Shown piece after piece: positions 451 to 4,166 of a stretch of DNA of 4,166 nt (positions within the stretch are counted from its first letter, which is position 1; each line of letters begins with the position of its first letter). The stretch is from a virus. Its lineage: Duplodnaviria; Heunggongvirae; Uroviricota; Caudoviricetes. The notes beneath the pieces are model-generated. The model worked only from the letters and a program-made list of their open reading frames with translations, was not told the origin of the DNA and made no database searches. The stretch lies in IMG/VR virus record IMGVR_UViG_3300003337_000016, one strand, 5' to 3'. The translations under genes were made by a program, and so were the position numbers.

Positions 451-1251
451 TTACACATGGCTGTTTTCCTCCATGCGACGGGCTAACCAACGCTGCGAAA
501 GACGAATTAATTCAGCTTTCCGCTGGTGGTAGCCCTGGCCTAACTCAATCAGCGTGATATTGCTCTGCTCAAGGTAAGAAAGGTGCTCAAGCTGCAACGT
601 GCTCATGTGGTCGCGTGGTTCGCCTGTGATGCCGTTCGCCTGCGCCCACTGTTTTGCAGTCATGCCACCCAGCACGATACGCGCCAGCATATTGGCTTCC
701 GTGGTGTAGTGGTGCTGGAACGTGTTTTTACCCAGTTCAGCCCGGTACGCCTCCAGCGCGGCACACATTGGCTTAAAGTAGCTGGCAACGGTGATACGGG
801 CTTTCAGTTCCCGGCGTAACGCTGCGGAACGCACTGGCGCTACCTTGTGTAGCTCCTCCTCGCATTTGATAAAGTACTGGCGAACGGCGCGGCCCTGTTC
901 GGTACGTTCGACCATCGCCAGTTCTTTCGCCATGTTCACTGTGATGATGTACTCAAGAGCGGTTTGCTGGCGAGATTTTGCGCTCACCGGATCGGGTCGG
1001 CTCAAATATTCAACAACCTCATAATCCACGCCTTCCGTGAACCCGTATTCTTCAATGCGCCCCTTGATCCACGAACGGAAAACGCGCCCTACACCTAACG
1101 CCTTATGTAACGCTCTGGCGCTAACAATAGTGGTTTCACGCCCACCAATAACGCCGGAAATAACCGGAATAATTTCAGCGAAATTTTGCAGATTCTGGTT
1201 TTCAGGCCGAACGAAGCCCTGCCCCTGTACGGGCGTTTTTCGCAGTTTCAT
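451..1251 (-). CDS. AntA/AntB-family phage antirepressor-like protein (266 aa)
   Basis: ORF with ATG at 1251 preceded by AGGAG with 5-nt spacing. The N-terminal region (SARALHKALGVGRVFRSWIKGRIEEYGFTEGVDYEVV) and the following MAKELAMVERTEQGRAVRQYFIKCEE block match the conserved signature I recall for AntA-domain antirepressors. GC is high (about 60%) and the frame is long and clean. Family call is from memory of motifs, not a search. Confidence 0.7.
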   Translation of the reverse strand: MKLRKTPVQGQGFVRPENQNLQNFAEIIPVISGVIGGRETTIVSARALHKALGVGRVFRSWIKGRIEEYGFTEGVDYEVVEYLSRPDPVSAKSRQQTALEYIITVNMAKELAMVERTEQGRAVRQYFIKCEEELHKVAPVRSAALRRELKARITVASYFKPMCAALEAYRAELGKNTFQHHYTTEANMLARIVLGGMTAKQWAQANGITGEPRDHMSTLQLEHLSYLEQSNITLIELGQGYHQRKAELIRLSQRWLARRMEENSHV

Positions 1252-1328: not shown

Positions 1329-1526
1329 TCAGGTAGCTGTTCCGCGTGATTCCGCAATACGCTGATTAATCCACTCGTCAATTTCACTCTCAACGAAAGC
1401 AATAGCTCGTGAGCCAATTTTAACTGATGCAGGAAATTTACCTTGCCCCATAAGGCGATAAATCCATGCCTTGCTATATCCAGTTCTACGCTGAACTTCT
1501 GTTAAACGAATAAGCGTATTTGACAT
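1329..1526 (-). CDS. alpA: AlpA-family transcriptional regulator / excisionase-like helix-turn-helix protein (65 aa)
   Basis: ATG at 1526 preceded by GAGGT with 6-nt spacing. The sequence LTEVQRRTGYSKAWIYRLMGQGKFP...ESEIDEWINQR has the AlpA/Vis-type HTH and the characteristic EIDEWxxQR C-terminal motif. Small size and position next to a P4-type integrase are typical for this family. Confidence 0.8.
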   Translation of the reverse strand: MSNTLIRLTEVQRRTGYSKAWIYRLMGQGKFPASVKIGSRAIAFVESEIDEWINQRIAESRGTAT

Positions 1527-1595
1527 ATATTTACCTCATAACGTCTACTCAATTTGACGAGGTAATCATGGCACAGAAATAACGAATATTTTCAT

Positions 1596-1738
1596 ACCCT
1601 CAGGCCTAATGGTTACCGGAAGGAAATTAACCCTAAGGGTGATGGTAATCGGGAGGAAATCTACCCTAAGGGTGATGGTAAAATTGACGGGGAAGATAAA
1701 AAAATACCCTCAGGGTAACAGTAAATCACCCTCAGGGT
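1596..1738. promoter_or_regulatory. Array of five palindromic sites with core ACCCT-N-AGGGT; candidate operator or activator-binding array upstream of alpA
   Basis: Cores at 1596-1606 (ACCCTCAGGcc, partial), 1630-1640 and 1663-1673 (ACCCTAAGGGT, each inside a 27-bp direct repeat aggaaatNNACCCTAAGGGTGATGGTAA), and 1706-1716 and 1728-1738 (ACCCTCAGGGT). Centre-to-centre spacings are 34, 33, 43 and 22 bp, close to whole helical turns. The array lies between the cargo gene stop (1754) and the alpA start (1526). Confidence 0.5.
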
Positions 1739-1753
1739 ATGCGGTATGGTGCG

Positions 1754-2551
1754 TTAATCCGGCTTTGCGTTCTTTTGGCTGTTGTCTCGGTTAATAGGGC
1801 AGGCAGTCCTCTCTATGAGCGTTGCAAGTGCATTACTTGCCCCCCACTGCTTAAGCTCCCTGGTTATCGCTTCTTGATTTCCCCTGGTGGCAAAATCATT
1901 TTCTGGATCGTAATTGGCCCACTCTCTGTTTCTAATCTCAATAGCCTTAGCTAATGGGTCTTTATCCCAGTATTTATATAAGTGTATCGGGCGCTCTTGC
2001 TCTAACTGCTCTATCCTTGCCCTTAACTCTGCGTTTTCTTTTTCCAGCATTGCGATTTGGGATAATAAATCATCCTCTGTACGCAACTCTTTCTTTTCAA
2101 TATCGCGTCCTTGTGCCTCGTCATTTTCAGAAGAGTTAGCGCCTTCCAGCTTCGTTAACGCGTCAAGGACATCGGGAAAAATTGCGAAAATTTCACCCCT
2201 TATAAATCCAATGTTCTCAAATTCGGGATCTTCCCAATAACCGGACACCAGAAAACCATTTTCATCCCTCTCACCAGGTAAACAACCACGTTTCCGAACC
2301 GCATTCAGATTTCTATAAAGAACATCATAATCAAATTCATCCCGATACGGGTTACAAAAAGATTCCAACAGCTTAAATTCATTTACTGTGTACAGGCGGA
2401 TATGTTCTCCGCTTATTCTCCTGAGTATCCAAGTTATGACATCTGAAACATCATAATCATCACCAGCGACCTTAAGCACGACCTCAAGAAATTCACGTAA
2501 AGAAATAAAATCTTTTTTGTATTCGTTTAATTCGGCATGAATATCAATCAT
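1754..2551 (-). CDS. Hypothetical protein, unrecognised family (265 aa); low-GC cargo gene between int and alpA
   Basis: The ORF track begins at GTG (2557), but ATG at 2551 is preceded by GAGGT with 6-nt spacing, so I call the start at 2551 (MIDIHAELNEYKK...). An 800-nt open frame in roughly 40% GC DNA is strongly non-random. The protein is acidic and hydrophilic with no obvious membrane segment, and has a central heptad-like coiled-coil stretch (LLSQIAMLEKENAELRARIEQLEQER). No catalytic motif I can assign. Confidence 0.78.
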   Translation of the reverse strand: MIDIHAELNEYKKDFISLREFLEVVLKVAGDDYDVSDVITWILRRISGEHIRLYTVNEFKLLESFCNPYRDEFDYDVLYRNLNAVRKRGCLPGERDENGFLVSGYWEDPEFENIGFIRGEIFAIFPDVLDALTKLEGANSSENDEAQGRDIEKKELRTEDDLLSQIAMLEKENAELRARIEQLEQERPIHLYKYWDKDPLAKAIEIRNREWANYDPENDFATRGNQEAITRELKQWGASNALATLIERTACPINRDNSQKNAKPD

Positions 2552-2679
2552 ACGCACACCTCAGCGTCCTCTACTGTAGTGGCTGTACCAGTCCGTCGAG
2601 GTGTACGGATTTTCGGGAGCGACCCTAGACACAGCCTTTTCTTTCGTCGCTCAAAGTCTACTACTGTATACGCAACCAG

Positions 2680-3894
2680 TCATCCACATTTTCCGAACTT
2701 GCCATGCACCACGTTACCGCCATGTTCGAGCGAATCCATATAGTCAGCGTACCACTGGAGCATCTCCCGGCGACCATCCAGATATTGCGCATGGTTGTAT
2801 GTGCCACGAATTGAGTTTTTATCGACGTGTGCGAGCTGCGTCTCTATCCACGCGGTGTTATAGCCCTGCTCATGCAAAATGGTGCTCATGGTGTGCCGGA
2901 ATCCATGACCAGTAACGCGCCCGGCATAGCCGATACGACGAATGAGCACATTCATCGCCATTTCACTCATTGGCTTACTGTGGTGAATACGACCGGGGAA
3001 AATAAACTGATACTGGCCTGTCATGTTTTTTAACTGCTCCAGTATTTTTATCGCCTGTTCTGGTAATGGCACACAATGCGGACGGCGCATCTTCATTCGC
3101 TCTTTAGGCACTTCCCACAAACGATTATCAAAATCGATCTCCTGCCATTCTGCCTGCCGTAATTCCCCGGGTCTGACACCTGTCAGAATTAATAGCCGCA
3201 TTGCCAGTTTGACGATCTGGCTTCCGGTGTACGTATTAAAAACGCGGAAAAATTCCGGCAGTTCGTCGGCCTTCAAATAGGCGTAATGCTCTTTTTTATG
3301 TGGAGCAAATGCGCTCACCAGGTCAGGGGCTGGATTATATTCGGCGCGTCCGGTGATGATTGCGTACCGGAACACCTCGCCGCATCGCTGGCGAACCTTA
3401 CGCAATTTTTCAGTCGCACCACGGTCATTAAGACGGGAAAGAACCGCCAGCAATTCCATCGGCTTAATTTCTGCGATCGGCCTACCACCAATGTACGGAA
3501 AAACATCTTTTTCAAACGTCTCGATCATTTCCTCGGCGTATGACGATGACCACCTGTCGATCCGCTTTTCGTACCATTCGCGAGCAATACCCTCAAAAGT
3601 ATTGCCAAATTTGCTCGCCTGTTCTCGCTTTTGGGCTTTTCTGGCCTCACTTGGATTTATACCACCAGCAAGAAGCCTTTTAGCCTCATCCCTTGCCGCC
3701 CTGGCATCAGACAGAGACACATCAGGGTACACACCCAATGACAACATTTTGGGCTTTCCTGCAAACCTGTAGCGCAGTCGCCACCCTTTCGAACCGTTCG
3801 GCTCAATGAGCAACGAAAGCCCGTTACCGTCATTGAGTGTATAAGCCTTTTCTTTCGGCTTCGCGCGCCTGATGGCAAGGTCTGAAAGCAGCAT
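2680..3894 (-). CDS. int: Tyrosine recombinase, P4-type phage integrase family (404 aa from the preferred start)
   Basis: The N-terminus (LSDLAIRRAKPKEKAYTLNDGNGLSLLIEPNGSKGWRLRYRF...LGVYPDVSLSDARAARDEAKRLL) is the typical P4-type integrase arm-binding domain. The C-terminal catalytic signatures are present: TGVRPGELR (box I Arg), HGFRHT (His-x-x-Arg) and RGTYNHAQY (catalytic Tyr region). The longest ORF starts at 3933 with no Shine-Dalgarno; the in-frame ATG at 3894 is preceded by GGAG with 8-nt spacing and is the more likely start. Stop is TGA at 2680-2682. Confidence 0.9.
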   Translation of the reverse strand: MLLSDLAIRRAKPKEKAYTLNDGNGLSLLIEPNGSKGWRLRYRFAGKPKMLSLGVYPDVSLSDARAARDEAKRLLAGGINPSEARKAQKREQASKFGNTFEGIAREWYEKRIDRWSSSYAEEMIETFEKDVFPYIGGRPIAEIKPMELLAVLSRLNDRGATEKLRKVRQRCGEVFRYAIITGRAEYNPAPDLVSAFAPHKKEHYAYLKADELPEFFRVFNTYTGSQIVKLAMRLLILTGVRPGELRQAEWQEIDFDNRLWEVPKERMKMRRPHCVPLPEQAIKILEQLKNMTGQYQFIFPGRIHHSKPMSEMAMNVLIRRIGYAGRVTGHGFRHTMSTILHEQGYNTAWIETQLAHVDKNSIRGTYNHAQYLDGRREMLQWYADYMDSLEHGGNVVHGKFGKCG

Positions 3895-4166
3895 GTGTAT
3901 AGCTCCAAAAAATAAATTTTGTCCTATACGCATTACTATACACTTCTGTGTGTAGATTCTGGTAGTTGTGAGTAGACGTTAATAAACTATGTAAATGGCT
4001 GGAAGGTTTGATATTCGTGGGTTTGATGGACTTTAGTAGACGTTGAGAAATGTTTGTTTGGAGCGGGCGAAGGGAACAATACAACAAGCCAAAAGGCCAG
4101 TAATAAAGGCGAATTCGCGAGTTCTAAAATAAATTCTATACACATTTCTATACACATTTATCACTC
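3895..4166. promoter_or_regulatory. Repeat-rich region upstream of int; candidate int promoter/operator and attachment-arm binding sites
   Basis: Motif CTATACRC on the plus strand at 3924-3931, 3936-3943, 4136-4143 and 4148-4155, with an inverted copy (GTGTATAG) at 3895-3902 abutting the int start codon. AGTAGACGTT occurs twice (3971-3980, 4035-4044) and GGTTTGAT twice (4005-4012, 4020-4027). A perfect 10-bp palindrome GCGAATTCGC is at 4109-4118. On the int-sense strand a TATAGT -10-like hexamer lies about 41 nt upstream of the ATG. No tRNA-like sequence is present. Confidence 0.4.
4134..4157 (+). repeat. Perfect tandem direct repeat, 2 x 12 bp (TTCTATACACAT)
   Basis: Positions 4134-4145 and 4146-4157 are identical and contain the CTATACAC motif also found next to the int start. 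Confidence 0.85.

What the first reader, a model, noticed from the sequence alone, without database searches (positions are those of the whole stretch)
1754..2551. Unrecognised low-GC cargo gene between int and alpA: candidate novel single-gene defence or interference factor
A 265-aa ORF sits exactly between the integrase and the AlpA regulator, where these islands normally have the two genes adjacent or nearly so. Its GC content (about 36-44% in sampled 100-nt stretches) is well below the flanking int (about 54%) and antA-like gene (about 60%), which points to separate acquisition. The protein matches nothing I recognise: an N-terminal globular region of about 140 aa, an acidic linker (SSENDEAQGRDIEKKELRTEDD), a clear coiled-coil segment (LLSQIAMLEKENAELRARIEQLEQER), and a C-terminal region of about 80 aa. 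Variable slots of this kind in phage satellites and chromosomal islands are known to carry anti-phage systems, so this is the best candidate for an undescribed system in the window. An R-x4-H pattern (RISGEH) is present but carries no weight on its own (see rejected items).
Basis: partly seen in the sequence, partly recalled or inferred. Interest (0 to 1): 0.8.

Follow-up and report, generated by a model that had tools for sequence, protein, structure and literature searches.

The report
Likely alpA switch regulator, not defence cargo
The unannotated 265-aa gene between the integrase and alpA is real and belongs to no described family, but it looks less like anti-phage cargo than like the DNA-binding half of a swappable control cassette that probably decides when this phage-satellite island switches on.

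Summary
The ORF is real: minus strand, 2551..1754, 265 aa. It has no Pfam, NCBIfam, PADLOC, PHROGs, PDB or phage match. It is not free-standing cargo.

Four perfect ACCCTNAGGGT palindromes and one degenerate copy lie directly downstream, just upstream of alpA. They occur nowhere else in the window or in a whole related island.

Across 15 loci from E. coli to uncultured proteobacteria, proteins with this C-terminal domain are always followed by the same motif. Five different N-terminal architectures are involved. Site positions relative to alpA are conserved and helically phased.

Proteins with the same N-domain but another C-domain have different repeats (ACTTCCA). Islands with near-identical int and AlpA but another slot gene have other repeats again.

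A known structured RNA, Rfam RF02996 (int-alpA RNA), lies 16 nt upstream of the start codon. The unit exchanged between islands is leader, gene, repeats and alpA promoter.

Best reading: a leucine-zipper dimer regulator of the alpA promoter with a variable input domain, functionally analogous to SaPI Stl. DNA binding, its sign and any helper sensing are inferred. The C-domain is uncharged and has no fold match. A defence role is not excluded.

The parts
2680..3933 (-). Tyrosine integrase (417 aa as listed from the first ATG; annotated homologues are 404 aa).
   Evidence: Pfam Arm-DNA-bind_3, Phage_int_M and Phage_integrase. Annotated as an integrase in E. coli relatives.
2568..2635 (-). Structured leader RNA, Rfam RF02996 'int-alpA RNA'. 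It ends 16 nt before the ORF's ATG.
   Evidence: cmscan gives 45.5 bits against a gathering score of 35.8, covering the full model. The same motif ends 14-21 nt upstream of the first slot ORF in 12 loci where I compared coordinates, and it reaches the gathering score in 17 related loci. It is absent from EcCICFT073, which lacks a slot gene.
1754..2551 (-). orf265, the gene of the finding (265 aa plus stop codon).
   Evidence: ORF list. 43 homologues. 121 50%-identity cluster representatives among 1.84 billion.
2147..2551 (-). N-terminal globular module (aa 1-135), proposed as the input or sensor module. It is acidic (net charge about -11) and begins with a winged-helix-like beta-alpha-alpha-beta-beta topology.
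2081..2146 (-). Acidic linker (aa 136-157), predicted disordered.
   Evidence: pLDDT below 50 for residues 140-158. Composition.
1991..2080 (-). Leucine zipper (aa 158-187), with Leu every 7 residues and an Asn in the ENAEL heptad. Read as a dimerisation element.
   Evidence: Single long helix in both AF2 models. Only sub-threshold bZIP, Max and GCN4-type matches.
1757..1990 (-). Conserved C-terminal four-helix domain (aa 188-265; motif DPL..AIEIRNxEW.NYDP...AIE.VACPI.R). Proposed DNA-recognition module.
   Evidence: The only part conserved across the family. AF2 pLDDT 89.6 with a 40-sequence alignment. Associated with the CCCTNAGGG array whatever the N-module. No known DNA-binding fold was found and the net charge is about 0.
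1728..1738 (.). Site O1, ACCCTCAGGGT, centred about -207 from the alpA ATG.
1706..1716 (.). Site O2, ACCCTCAGGGT, about -185. On the minus strand it is followed by a T-run, so it is also terminator-like.
1663..1673 (.). Site O3, ACCCTAAGGGT, about -142.
1630..1640 (.). Site O4, ACCCTAAGGGT, about -109.
1597..1612 (.). Promoter-proximal variant site (minus strand CCATTAGGCCTGAGGG; half-sites 4 nt apart). It abuts the -35 position of the putative alpA promoter.
   Evidence: Equivalent proximal inverted repeats made of each cassette type's own half-site are seen in L006, L008, L010, L028 and L036.
1565..1573 (-). Putative extended -10 of the alpA promoter (minus strand TGCCATGAT). There is no recognisable -35.
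   Evidence: Read from the sequence. The element recurs at the same place in related loci. The consensus scan found no canonical sigma-70 promoter on this strand. Inference only.
1329..1526 (-). alpA (65 aa), the island's activator or excisionase-type regulator and the presumed target of the array.
   Evidence: Pfam Phage_AlpA, 2.4e-19. Its role in Gram-negative PICIs is described in PMC6092414 and PMC11773190.
1548..2631 (-). The mosaic cassette exchanged between otherwise near-identical islands: leader RNA, orf265, repeat array and alpA promoter.
   Evidence: blastn of the window against L002 aligns only 184-1547 and 2632-4076. Against L004 the break is 1485-2577. Against L005, which has another integrase, homology runs 184-2937.

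Best explanation
orf265 is the protein half of the island's control cassette for alpA.

Core claim (about 0.6): two chains pair through the leucine zipper. The conserved C-terminal four-helix domains read the 11-bp palindrome ACCCTNAGGGT. The dimers occupy five helically phased sites from about -207 to -75 relative to the alpA start codon. The last site abuts the -35 position of the alpA promoter, so the protein sets whether alpA is transcribed. AlpA is what starts the island's excision-replication cycle.

The acidic, interchangeable N-terminal module is the input. I infer that it binds a helper-phage protein or another signal, which would couple alpA expression to helper infection. Its own expression is probably tuned through the structured RF02996 leader, which carries its Shine-Dalgarno sequence.

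Sign of regulation (inferred, about 55:45): a repressor that holds the alpA promoter off in the quiescent island and is released by the helper, as SaPI Stl is, rather than a helper-dependent activator.

Shown here: the gene, the array, its exclusivity, its association with the C-domain, the cassette boundaries and the leader RNA.
Inferred: DNA binding by this protein, the sign of regulation, and sensing of the helper.
For: 1. Four perfect ACCCTNAGGGT copies lie in 1630-1738 against 0.06 expected in the window. In a 32-kb stretch holding the whole related island they are the only four.
2. In 15 loci that encode this C-domain there are 29 CCCTNAGGG in the gene-alpA intergenic regions (about 3.2 kb) and 0 in about 120 kb of flanks. 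Within this set L011, L013 and L014 have no perfect copy, only degenerate ones.
3. The motif follows the C-domain across five N-terminal architectures: long forms, split or short forms, and the L010, L011 and membrane-anchored types.
4. Pasteurellaceae and Orbaceae variants of the domain go with ACTATNATAGT-type sites instead.
5. Converse case: L036 and L037 carry proteins with the orf265-type N-domain but another, zipper-less C-domain. They have no CCCTNAGGG and instead have 4-5 ACTTCCA direct repeats, with a near-identical AlpA.
6. L002 has 98.5%-identical int-side DNA and a 97%-identical AlpA, but a slot gene whose C-domain is only remotely related (hhalign E 2.4e-5). Its repeats are different. 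L004 has a third gene type with ACCGCAATTGCGGT x2. Int and AlpA are therefore excluded as the readers of the repeats.
7. Site centres are conserved at about -207, -175, -151, -108 and -75 in Salmonella, with four or five of them matched within a few bp in Kluyvera, Pantoea and Symbiopectobacterium. E. coli keeps the outer and proximal sites and shifts the middle ones. Spacings of 22-24, 32-34 and 42-44 bp fit whole helical turns.
8. A zipper accompanies palindromes in this type, and its absence accompanies direct repeats in the L036/L037 type. L004, with a coiled-coil-like region, also has palindromes.
9. The unit swapped between islands is exactly leader, gene, array and promoter.
10. Literature: helper phages switch on alpA transcription in Gram-negative PICIs. 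[quoted passage not shown] EcCIMP1 has the same int-ORF2-alpA layout with ORF2 uncharacterised (PMC11773190).
Against: 2. The C-domain is uncharged (pI 7.1) and the whole protein carries about -20.
3. The C-domain is encoded right next to the repeats. Physical linkage within a swapped cassette could therefore mimic functional co-variation.
4. The window's C-domain differs from its E. coli relatives in the last helix (NALATLIERTA against SRQAASIELVA) while the sites stay the same. That helix is therefore unlikely to set specificity.
5. The promoter assignment is by eye only. A weak or absent -35 with a site centred near -43 would fit activation at least as well as repression.
6. In the Vibrio PICMI satellite, the unrelated gene in this slot is needed for excision rather than restraining it (PMC10803314).
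Confidence: 0.58

Rival explanations
1. Same DNA-binding architecture, but the protein is a helper-dependent activator or co-activator of the alpA promoter. It sits on the array, and on helper infection its N-module recruits or is remodelled by a phage factor so that RNA polymerase can use a promoter that lacks a -35.
For: - The putative promoter has an extended -10 but no -35, and the proximal site is centred about 43 nt upstream of the inferred start (positions inferred).
- In the L004 cassette the two palindromes lie upstream of the core promoter (promoter position inferred by eye).
- EcCICFT073, which has no slot gene, is still silent without a helper and switched on by it. Activation is therefore the documented logic in this satellite class (PMC6092414).
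- The PICMI slot gene is required for excision.
Against: - N-modules are highly diverse, sometimes separate polypeptides, sometimes absent or membrane-anchored. That is hard to reconcile with one conserved RNA polymerase contact.
- Five phased sites spanning about 130 bp are more than a simple activator needs.
- The gene lies downstream of int. In PICMI, int and the slot gene are constitutive, so the protein is probably present while alpA is off.
Confidence: 0.26
2. One reading: a single-gene anti-phage defence or helper-interference factor carried as cargo. The neighbouring repeats would be unrelated to it.
For: - There is no known function.
- The slot is mosaic.
- Satellites do carry defence genes in hotspots (PMC10803314).
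- SaPI Stl2 shows that a satellite regulator can itself confer immunity (PMC11846896 abstract).
- The acidic N-module, and SSB-tail-like ends in related N-modules, could target phage proteins.
Against: - No PADLOC match and no phage or PHROGs family match.
- No enzymatic or effector domain appears in the models.
- The position next to alpA is kept across families of bacteria, with a conserved leader RNA and an associated site array. That is not how hotspot cargo behaves.
- Recognisable cargo (toxin-antitoxin, SocA) inserts between int and this gene.
Confidence: 0.12
3. The repeats are response elements for a helper-phage or host factor. orf265 merely travels with them, so the co-variation reflects linkage only.
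For: - The C-domain is encoded directly next to the array.
- It is not basic and has no recognisable DNA-binding fold.
- In EcCICFT073 a phage factor acts on the alpA promoter without any slot gene.
Against: - The C-domain and CCCTNAGGG stay paired from E. coli to high-GC uncultured proteobacteria at about 30% protein identity, with conserved site positions.
- This reading needs one phage factor's specificity to be conserved over that range and to be replaced in step with each change of C-domain type.
- The zipper-with-palindrome and no-zipper-with-direct-repeat correspondence is unexplained by linkage.
Confidence: 0.1
4. An accessory DNA-architecture protein for another process: excision (a directionality factor, like the PICMI slot gene), packaging-site recognition (small-terminase-like) or partition or replication (centromere or iteron binding).
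For: - The PICMI slot gene is needed for excision.
- Arrays of phased sites beside the gene of their binding protein also occur at pac sites and plasmid centromeres (general knowledge).
- The order N-domain, coiled coil, C-domain loosely recalls small terminases.
Against: - The array is about 2.3 kb from the att end (about 4076), too far for arm-type sites.
- It ends at the alpA promoter and keeps a fixed distance to the alpA start.
- There is no terminase, ParB or Rep family hit in Pfam or PHROGs and no partner ATPase nearby.
- The only 'terminase small subunit' fold hit is noise, E 0.79.
Confidence: 0.06

Closest known systems
SaPI Stl / PICI Rpr master repressors of Gram-positive phage-inducible chromosomal islands
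   Same: - An island-encoded regulator next to int that gates the island's activation genes.
- Modular: one conserved part and one highly variable part that defines the input.
- Allelic diversity between otherwise similar islands.
- Multiple binding sites in the adjacent intergenic region.
   Different: - No sequence or fold relationship, and no Xre-type HTH.
- Co-directional with int and the target gene rather than divergent.
- The proposed DNA-binding part is C-terminal and follows a leucine zipper.
- Repression and phage-protein binding are not shown here.
Immunity regions of lambdoid phages (repressor plus cognate operators exchanged as a block)
   Same: A regulator gene, its operators and the controlled promoter are swapped as one cassette between elements whose flanks stay near-identical. 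Several specificity types exist, each with its own repeat.
   Different: - The proteins are unrelated to CI/Cro.
- There is one protein rather than a repressor/antirepressor pair.
- The controlled gene is alpA of a satellite, not phage early operons.
Rfam RF02996 int-alpA RNA (candidate structured RNA from the comparative-genomics screen of PMC5737381)
   Same: The window contains a full-length match above the gathering score at 2568-2635.
   Different: Rfam files it as a stand-alone sRNA named after the flanking genes. In 12 loci where I compared coordinates it ends 14-21 nt before the start codon of the slot gene, and its 3' end supplies the Shine-Dalgarno sequence. It therefore behaves as a 5' leader of this gene class.
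iolg/icg genes of Vibrio PICMI satellites (PMC10803314)
   Same: Genes of unknown function in the int-alpA interval of a phage satellite, in many unrelated families. The one tested has a core role in the life cycle rather than being cargo.
   Different: - iolg overlaps int by 1-13 nt, whereas here there is a 128-nt gap holding an RNA motif.
- Homology was not tested because no PICMI sequences were at hand.
- iolg is proposed to join the excision complex, and no operator array is reported.
EcCIMP1_002 of E. coli PICI EcCIMP1 (PMC11773190)
   Same: Same island layout: int(001), ORF002, alpA(003), antirepressor, primase, PerC. The slot gene is uncharacterised.
   Different: ORF002 is described as about 10% of the size of UvrB, much smaller than orf265, and was tested only for UV rescue. 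Its sequence was not compared here.

Membership tests
Known anti-phage defence systems (PADLOC-DB v2) | A significant match of the protein to a model of a known or candidate defence protein. | tested here: not met
   0 families at E up to 1.
SaPI Stl / PICI Rpr master repressor | An Xre/CI-type helix-turn-helix DNA-binding domain. | tested here: not met
SaPI Stl / PICI Rpr master repressor | Transcribed divergently from the genes it represses, with operators in the divergent intergenic region. | tested here: not met
   int, orf265 and alpA are all on the minus strand. The site array lies downstream of orf265 and upstream of alpA.
SaPI Stl / PICI Rpr master repressor | Derepression by direct binding of a helper-phage protein. 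| not testable with these tools
   Needs binding and reporter assays. Here there is only the variability and modular exchange of the N-module.
Rfam RF02996 int-alpA RNA (for 2568-2635) | A covariance-model score at or above the curated gathering score over the full model. | tested here: met
   45.5 bits against 35.8, model positions 1-71 of 71.
AlpA / Xis (HTH_17, Phage_AlpA) family | A match to PF05930 or PF12728. | tested here: not met
   orf265 has no such hit. The neighbouring 65-aa gene does.
bZIP-type leucine-zipper DNA-binding proteins | A basic region immediately N-terminal to the zipper, and a Pfam bZIP match above threshold. | tested here: not met
   bZIP_2 scores 15.0 bits against a cut-off of 22.3. 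The segment before the zipper is acidic. Only the heptad-Leu zipper itself is present.
Small terminase / packaging-site binding proteins | A match to a terminase small-subunit family or fold. | tested here: not met
   No PHROGs or Pfam terminase hit. The only BFVD hit has E 0.79 and TM 0.09.
PICMI iolg/icg genes | Located between int and alpA of a phage satellite. | tested here: met
PICMI iolg/icg genes | Start overlaps or abuts the int stop codon (1-13 nt overlap, typically ATGA). | tested here: not met
   128 nt separate the int stop (2680) from the ATG (2551).
PICMI iolg/icg genes | Sequence homology to one of the 13 iolg/icg families. | not tested

The most novel reading that the evidence does not exclude
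This protein family, with its leader RNA and operator array, is the missing helper-sensing master switch of a large class of Gram-negative phage satellites.

It would be a previously undescribed DNA-binding domain, dimerised by a zipper and fused or coupled to interchangeable sensor modules. It would be exchanged between islands as an immunity-like cassette that sets which helper phage can switch alpA on.
Probability: 0.33. Interest if true: 0.8.

Novelty: new variant of a known kind. Interest (0 to 1): 0.62.

Why it matters
How helper phages switch on Gram-negative phage-inducible islands has been open since 2018. AlpA is known to be the activator and to be induced by the helper. No island repressor or sensor, and no phage inducer, appears in the papers I could search (PMC6092414, PMC10803314, PMC11773190).

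This analysis points to a specific, widespread and unannotated gene class. One short form alone is indexed in 1845 blocks of the assembly collection, including Salmonella Typhimurium. It comes with defined binding sites and a defined RNA leader as the candidate switch, which turns the question into a few simple experiments.

It also gives a functional context to an orphan Rfam motif. It warns against reading every mosaic slot in a satellite as a defence hotspot.

Tried and rejected
- **Family scans:** Pfam, NCBIfam, PHROGs and PADLOC gave only coiled-coil noise.
- **PDB profile search:** only leucine-zipper noise.
- **Phage genomes:** tblastn found nothing.
- **Other slot types:** I suspected that the C-terminal domain of the N-domain-only relatives (P0095 type) resembled that of the L004 slot gene. 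BLASTP did not support this, and hhalign found no relation between L004's gene and this family.
- **Excision arm sites:** rejected on distance from att and fixed register to alpA.
- **Simple terminators:** two repeats score as weak terminator-like hairpins. Four to five copies, most without a T-run and at conserved phased positions, argue for protein sites.
- **Promoter:** the consensus scan found no canonical sigma-70 promoter for alpA. The -10 assignment is by eye only.
- **Literature:** searches for a described function of the slot gene found none. The supplement of the paper that introduced the RNA motif was not available.
Full report
**1. What is there**

The window is the int-proximal end of an E. 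coli-type chromosomal island. On the minus strand, in order of transcription, lie:
- an integrase (3933..2680);
- the ORF of the finding (2551..1754, 265 aa);
- a 227-nt intergenic region;
- alpA (1526..1329);
- an AntA-domain gene (1251..451).

In complete E. coli genomes the same arrangement opens a roughly 15-kb island at tRNA-Gly beside actS. That island has Icd-like, DUF4222, RepA-helicase or primase, ProQ/FinO and PerC genes and no phage structural module. This is the layout of the experimentally verified PICI EcCIMP1: int(001), ORF002, alpA(003), antirepressor, primase, PerC (PMC11773190). The ORF's DNA is present in 148 of 5426 complete E. coli genomes, almost always at 99% identity or more.

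**2. Checking the observation**

The ORF, its length, its position and the quoted peptide segments are correct. ATG 2551 is the likely start, because homologues begin MIDI and a GAGG lies 7 nt upstream.

No curated family matches. Pfam, NCBIfam and PHROGs give only coiled-coil noise, and PADLOC gives nothing.

GC is 41.5% for the ORF, 49.6% for int and 53.7% for the antA-like gene. The contrast is real but smaller than stated. alpA (42.4%) and the intergenic region (42.3%) are equally AT-rich.

The premise that int and alpA are normally adjacent holds for EcCICFT073, which has a 365-nt gap and no gene. It does not hold for this island family.

**3. The protein**

The family is small: 43 proteins in the first search and 121 cluster representatives among 1.84 billion. 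No curated family or source gives any member a functional name, and tblastn found nothing in 50,697 phage genomes.

Alignment shows that only the last 70 or so residues are conserved (DPL..AIEIRNxEW.NYDP...AIE.VACPI.R). The N-terminal part varies or is replaced.

AlphaFold gives four parts:
- a confident N-terminal globular module, aa 1-135, with a winged-helix-like start;
- a disordered acidic linker;
- one long helix with leucines every seven residues;
- a compact four-helix C-terminal domain, pLDDT 89.6 with a 40-sequence alignment.

The commonest natural form is split. A roughly 100-aa ORF that aligns with the first 45 or so residues of orf265 is followed by a roughly 145-aa ORF carrying the zipper and C-domain. 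In the Salmonella locus the two ORFs overlap by 4 nt.

Other members carry quite different N-terminal regions, including predicted membrane helices. Conversely, the orf265-type N-module also occurs fused to an unrelated, zipper-less C-terminal domain.

**4. The repeats next to it**

Between the ORF's stop and alpA lie four perfect copies of ACCCTNAGGGT (1630, 1663, 1706, 1728). A degenerate promoter-proximal copy with a wider spacer lies at 1597-1612.

Chance expectation for the window is 0.06 copies. In a 32-kb stretch holding the whole related island and its flanks, these are the only four.

I then collected loci that encode the C-domain: 21 from representative genomes and more by exact look-up. 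In every one the gene is followed, after 114-293 nt, by an alpA-like gene.

In 15 non-redundant loci, CCCTNAGGG occurs 29 times in those intergenic regions (about 3.2 kb) and never in about 120 kb of flanking DNA. L011, L013 and L014 have no perfect copy, only degenerate ones.

The site centres lie at about -207, -175, -151, -108 and -75 from the alpA ATG in Salmonella, and four or five of them are matched within a few bp in Kluyvera, Pantoea and Symbiopectobacterium. E. coli keeps the outer and proximal sites and shifts the middle ones. Spacings of 22-24, 32-34 and 42-44 bp fit whole helical turns.

**5. What the repeats track**

They do not track AlpA or Int. L002 has 98.5%-identical int-side DNA and a 97%-identical AlpA. 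Its slot gene has a C-domain only remotely related to this one (hhalign E 2.4e-5), and its repeats are AATGGT-type. L004 has a third, unrelated slot gene and two copies of ACCGCAATTGCGGT.

They do not track the N-module:
- Five different N-architectures share CCCTNAGGG.
- L036 and L037 have the orf265-type N-module on another C-domain. They have no CCCTNAGGG and instead have four or five ACTTCCA direct repeats, with a near-identical AlpA.
- Pasteurellaceae and Orbaceae variants of the C-domain go with ACTATNATAGT-type sites.

A zipper accompanies palindromes in this type, and its absence accompanies direct repeats in the L036/L037 type.

This two-way dissociation is the main argument that the C-domain dimer reads the repeats.

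The main caveat is linkage. The C-domain is encoded right beside the array, so a swapped cassette would show the same pattern without any binding. Against pure linkage, the pairing and the site geometry persist to proteins of about 30% identity in high-GC uncultured bacteria.

**6. The cassette and its leader**

blastn of the window against L002 aligns only 184-1547 and 2632-4076. The exchanged block is therefore 1548-2631, which runs from 81 nt upstream of the ORF to 21 nt upstream of alpA's ATG.

Where the integrase differs (L005), homology runs from alpA through the ORF into the 3' end of int.

Rfam's RF02996, the 'int-alpA RNA', matches 2568-2635 at 45.5 bits against a gathering score of 35.8. 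The same motif reaches the gathering score in 17 related loci. In 12 where I compared coordinates it ends 14-21 nt before the first slot ORF. This includes the L004, L036 and L037 cassette types. It is absent from EcCICFT073.

It therefore behaves as the 5' leader of the slot gene rather than a free sRNA. A single-sequence fold suggests that the loop of its second hairpin (ACACCUC) can pair with the ORF's Shine-Dalgarno region (GAGGUGU). The energy is not better than shuffles, z = -1.05.

**7. How it most likely works**

Shown:
- a leucine-zipper protein with a conserved C-domain;
- a unique, phased, conserved array of palindromes ending at the alpA promoter;
- association of the array with that domain;
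- exchange of leader, gene, array and promoter as one unit.

[quoted passage not shown] Its transcription is switched on by the helper phage, not by SOS. The inducer is unknown and a global repressor has not been found (PMC6092414; PMC11773190).

Inferred: the protein binds the array as zipper dimers and sets alpA promoter activity, and the interchangeable N-module receives the helper signal.

I lean about 55:45 to a repressor released by the helper, as Stl is. The protein is probably made with int in the quiescent state, and the array is long and reaches the -35 position. However, the apparent lack of a -35, a proximal site near -43, and the behaviour of the PICMI slot gene (required for excision) fit an activator about as well.

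**8. Against the defence reading**

- Nothing in PADLOC.
- No effector-like domain in the models.
- A fixed position next to alpA across bacterial families.
- Recognisable cargo (ParE/antitoxin, SocA) inserting between int and this gene in Mannheimia.

A dual role remains possible. SaPI Stl2 is a repressor that also gives immunity (PMC11846896 abstract).

**9. Weak points**

- There is no direct evidence of DNA binding.
- The C-domain is uncharged, the whole protein is about -20, and no DNA-binding fold was recognised.
- The window's last helix differs from that of relatives which use the same sites.
- Promoter elements were assigned by eye.
- Homology to the PICMI or EcCIMP1 slot genes was not tested.

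**10. Verdict**

The interpretation as defence cargo is not the best-supported one. The gene is most likely the DNA-binding regulator of a swappable alpA-control cassette. It is functionally closest to Stl/Rpr and to lambdoid immunity regions but unrelated to them in sequence, fold and layout, and it is coupled to a known orphan RNA motif. It is a new variant of a known kind and of real interest, because it makes the induction mechanism of Gram-negative satellites testable.

Noticed in passing
L007 3920-4369; L003 3882-4202; L028 5699-6004: In the split-gene subfamily the separate N-module ORF ends in a tail like the C-terminal tip of E. coli SSB, quoted from memory as MDFDDDIPF. Raoultella has ...APMDFDDDIPF*, E. 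coli ...DDSDDIPY* and Salmonella ...WPGDIPF*. This may be an SSB-tail mimic for docking to SSB-interacting host or phage proteins, or to the C-module. The window's fused orf265 lacks it.
   Followed up: no
window 451-1251 (-), residues 172-254: The C-terminal half of the AntA-domain protein downstream of alpA matches PADLOC candidate defence model PDC-S22 (E 1.7e-9). The N-terminal half is a standard AntA/Ant anti-repressor domain.
   Followed up: no
window 2545-2640 (-): The loop of hairpin 2 of the RF02996 leader (ACACCUC) is complementary to the Shine-Dalgarno region of orf265 (GAGGUGU). The minimum-energy fold of the single sequence sequesters the SD instead of forming the Rfam structure (z = -1.05, not significant). 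This may be a translational switch.
   Followed up: partly
window 1527-1560 (-), and the same place in L003, L006-L009, L011, L014, L028, L034, L036: A conserved stem (CCUCGU...AUGAGG in the window; CUCGUAA...UUACGAG elsewhere) pairs the alpA Shine-Dalgarno sequence with a sequence about 25 nt upstream. It is -8.2 kcal/mol and not better than shuffles for the single sequence. It could limit alpA translation.
   Followed up: partly
L027 4188-4252 and 4449-4473 (EcCICFT073); L028 about 5390-5520: EcCICFT073 has no slot gene. Its int-alpA gap holds five (G/A)ACAAC-containing repeats at exactly 10-bp spacing, plus one more copy next to alpA. Salmonella L028 has GGAACAAC/GTTGTTCC repeats between int and the leader RNA. 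These may be binding sites for a different factor, such as AlpA or a phage activator.
   Followed up: no
L035 1219-3912 (Mannheimia haemolytica): A ParE toxin, an HTH antitoxin, a SocA_Panacea protein and two small ORFs lie between int and the slot gene, which stays adjacent to alpA. In L010 (Xenorhabdus) the leader RNA is 1.4 kb upstream of the slot gene. The real cargo insertion point may therefore be the boundary between int and the slot gene.
   Followed up: partly
L031 1668-2216; L032 4001-4525 (metagenome contigs): Distant family members have an N-terminal region that looks like two membrane helices instead of the globular module. They keep the int-leader RNA-gene-CCCTNAGGG-alpA layout, with RF02996 at about 70 bits. 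A membrane-tethered form of the proposed DNA-binding protein would need explaining.
   Followed up: partly
window 4077-4166: Similarity to E. coli genomes stops at 4076, inside the tRNA-Gly 3' end that serves as the att core. The last 90 nt match no complete E. coli genome contiguously and contain a direct repeat (tctatacacattt twice). This may be a tandem element or another junction.
   Followed up: partly
L003 753-980; L006 7038-7223; L007 6897-7124; L009 6269-6496; L015, L017, L018, L026, L032: Related islands carry isrK and C4 antisense RNA matches, the P4-type immunity RNA pair, a few kb downstream of alpA. These islands would then combine a P4-like RNA immunity element with the protein cassette described here. 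The window ends before that region.
   Followed up: no
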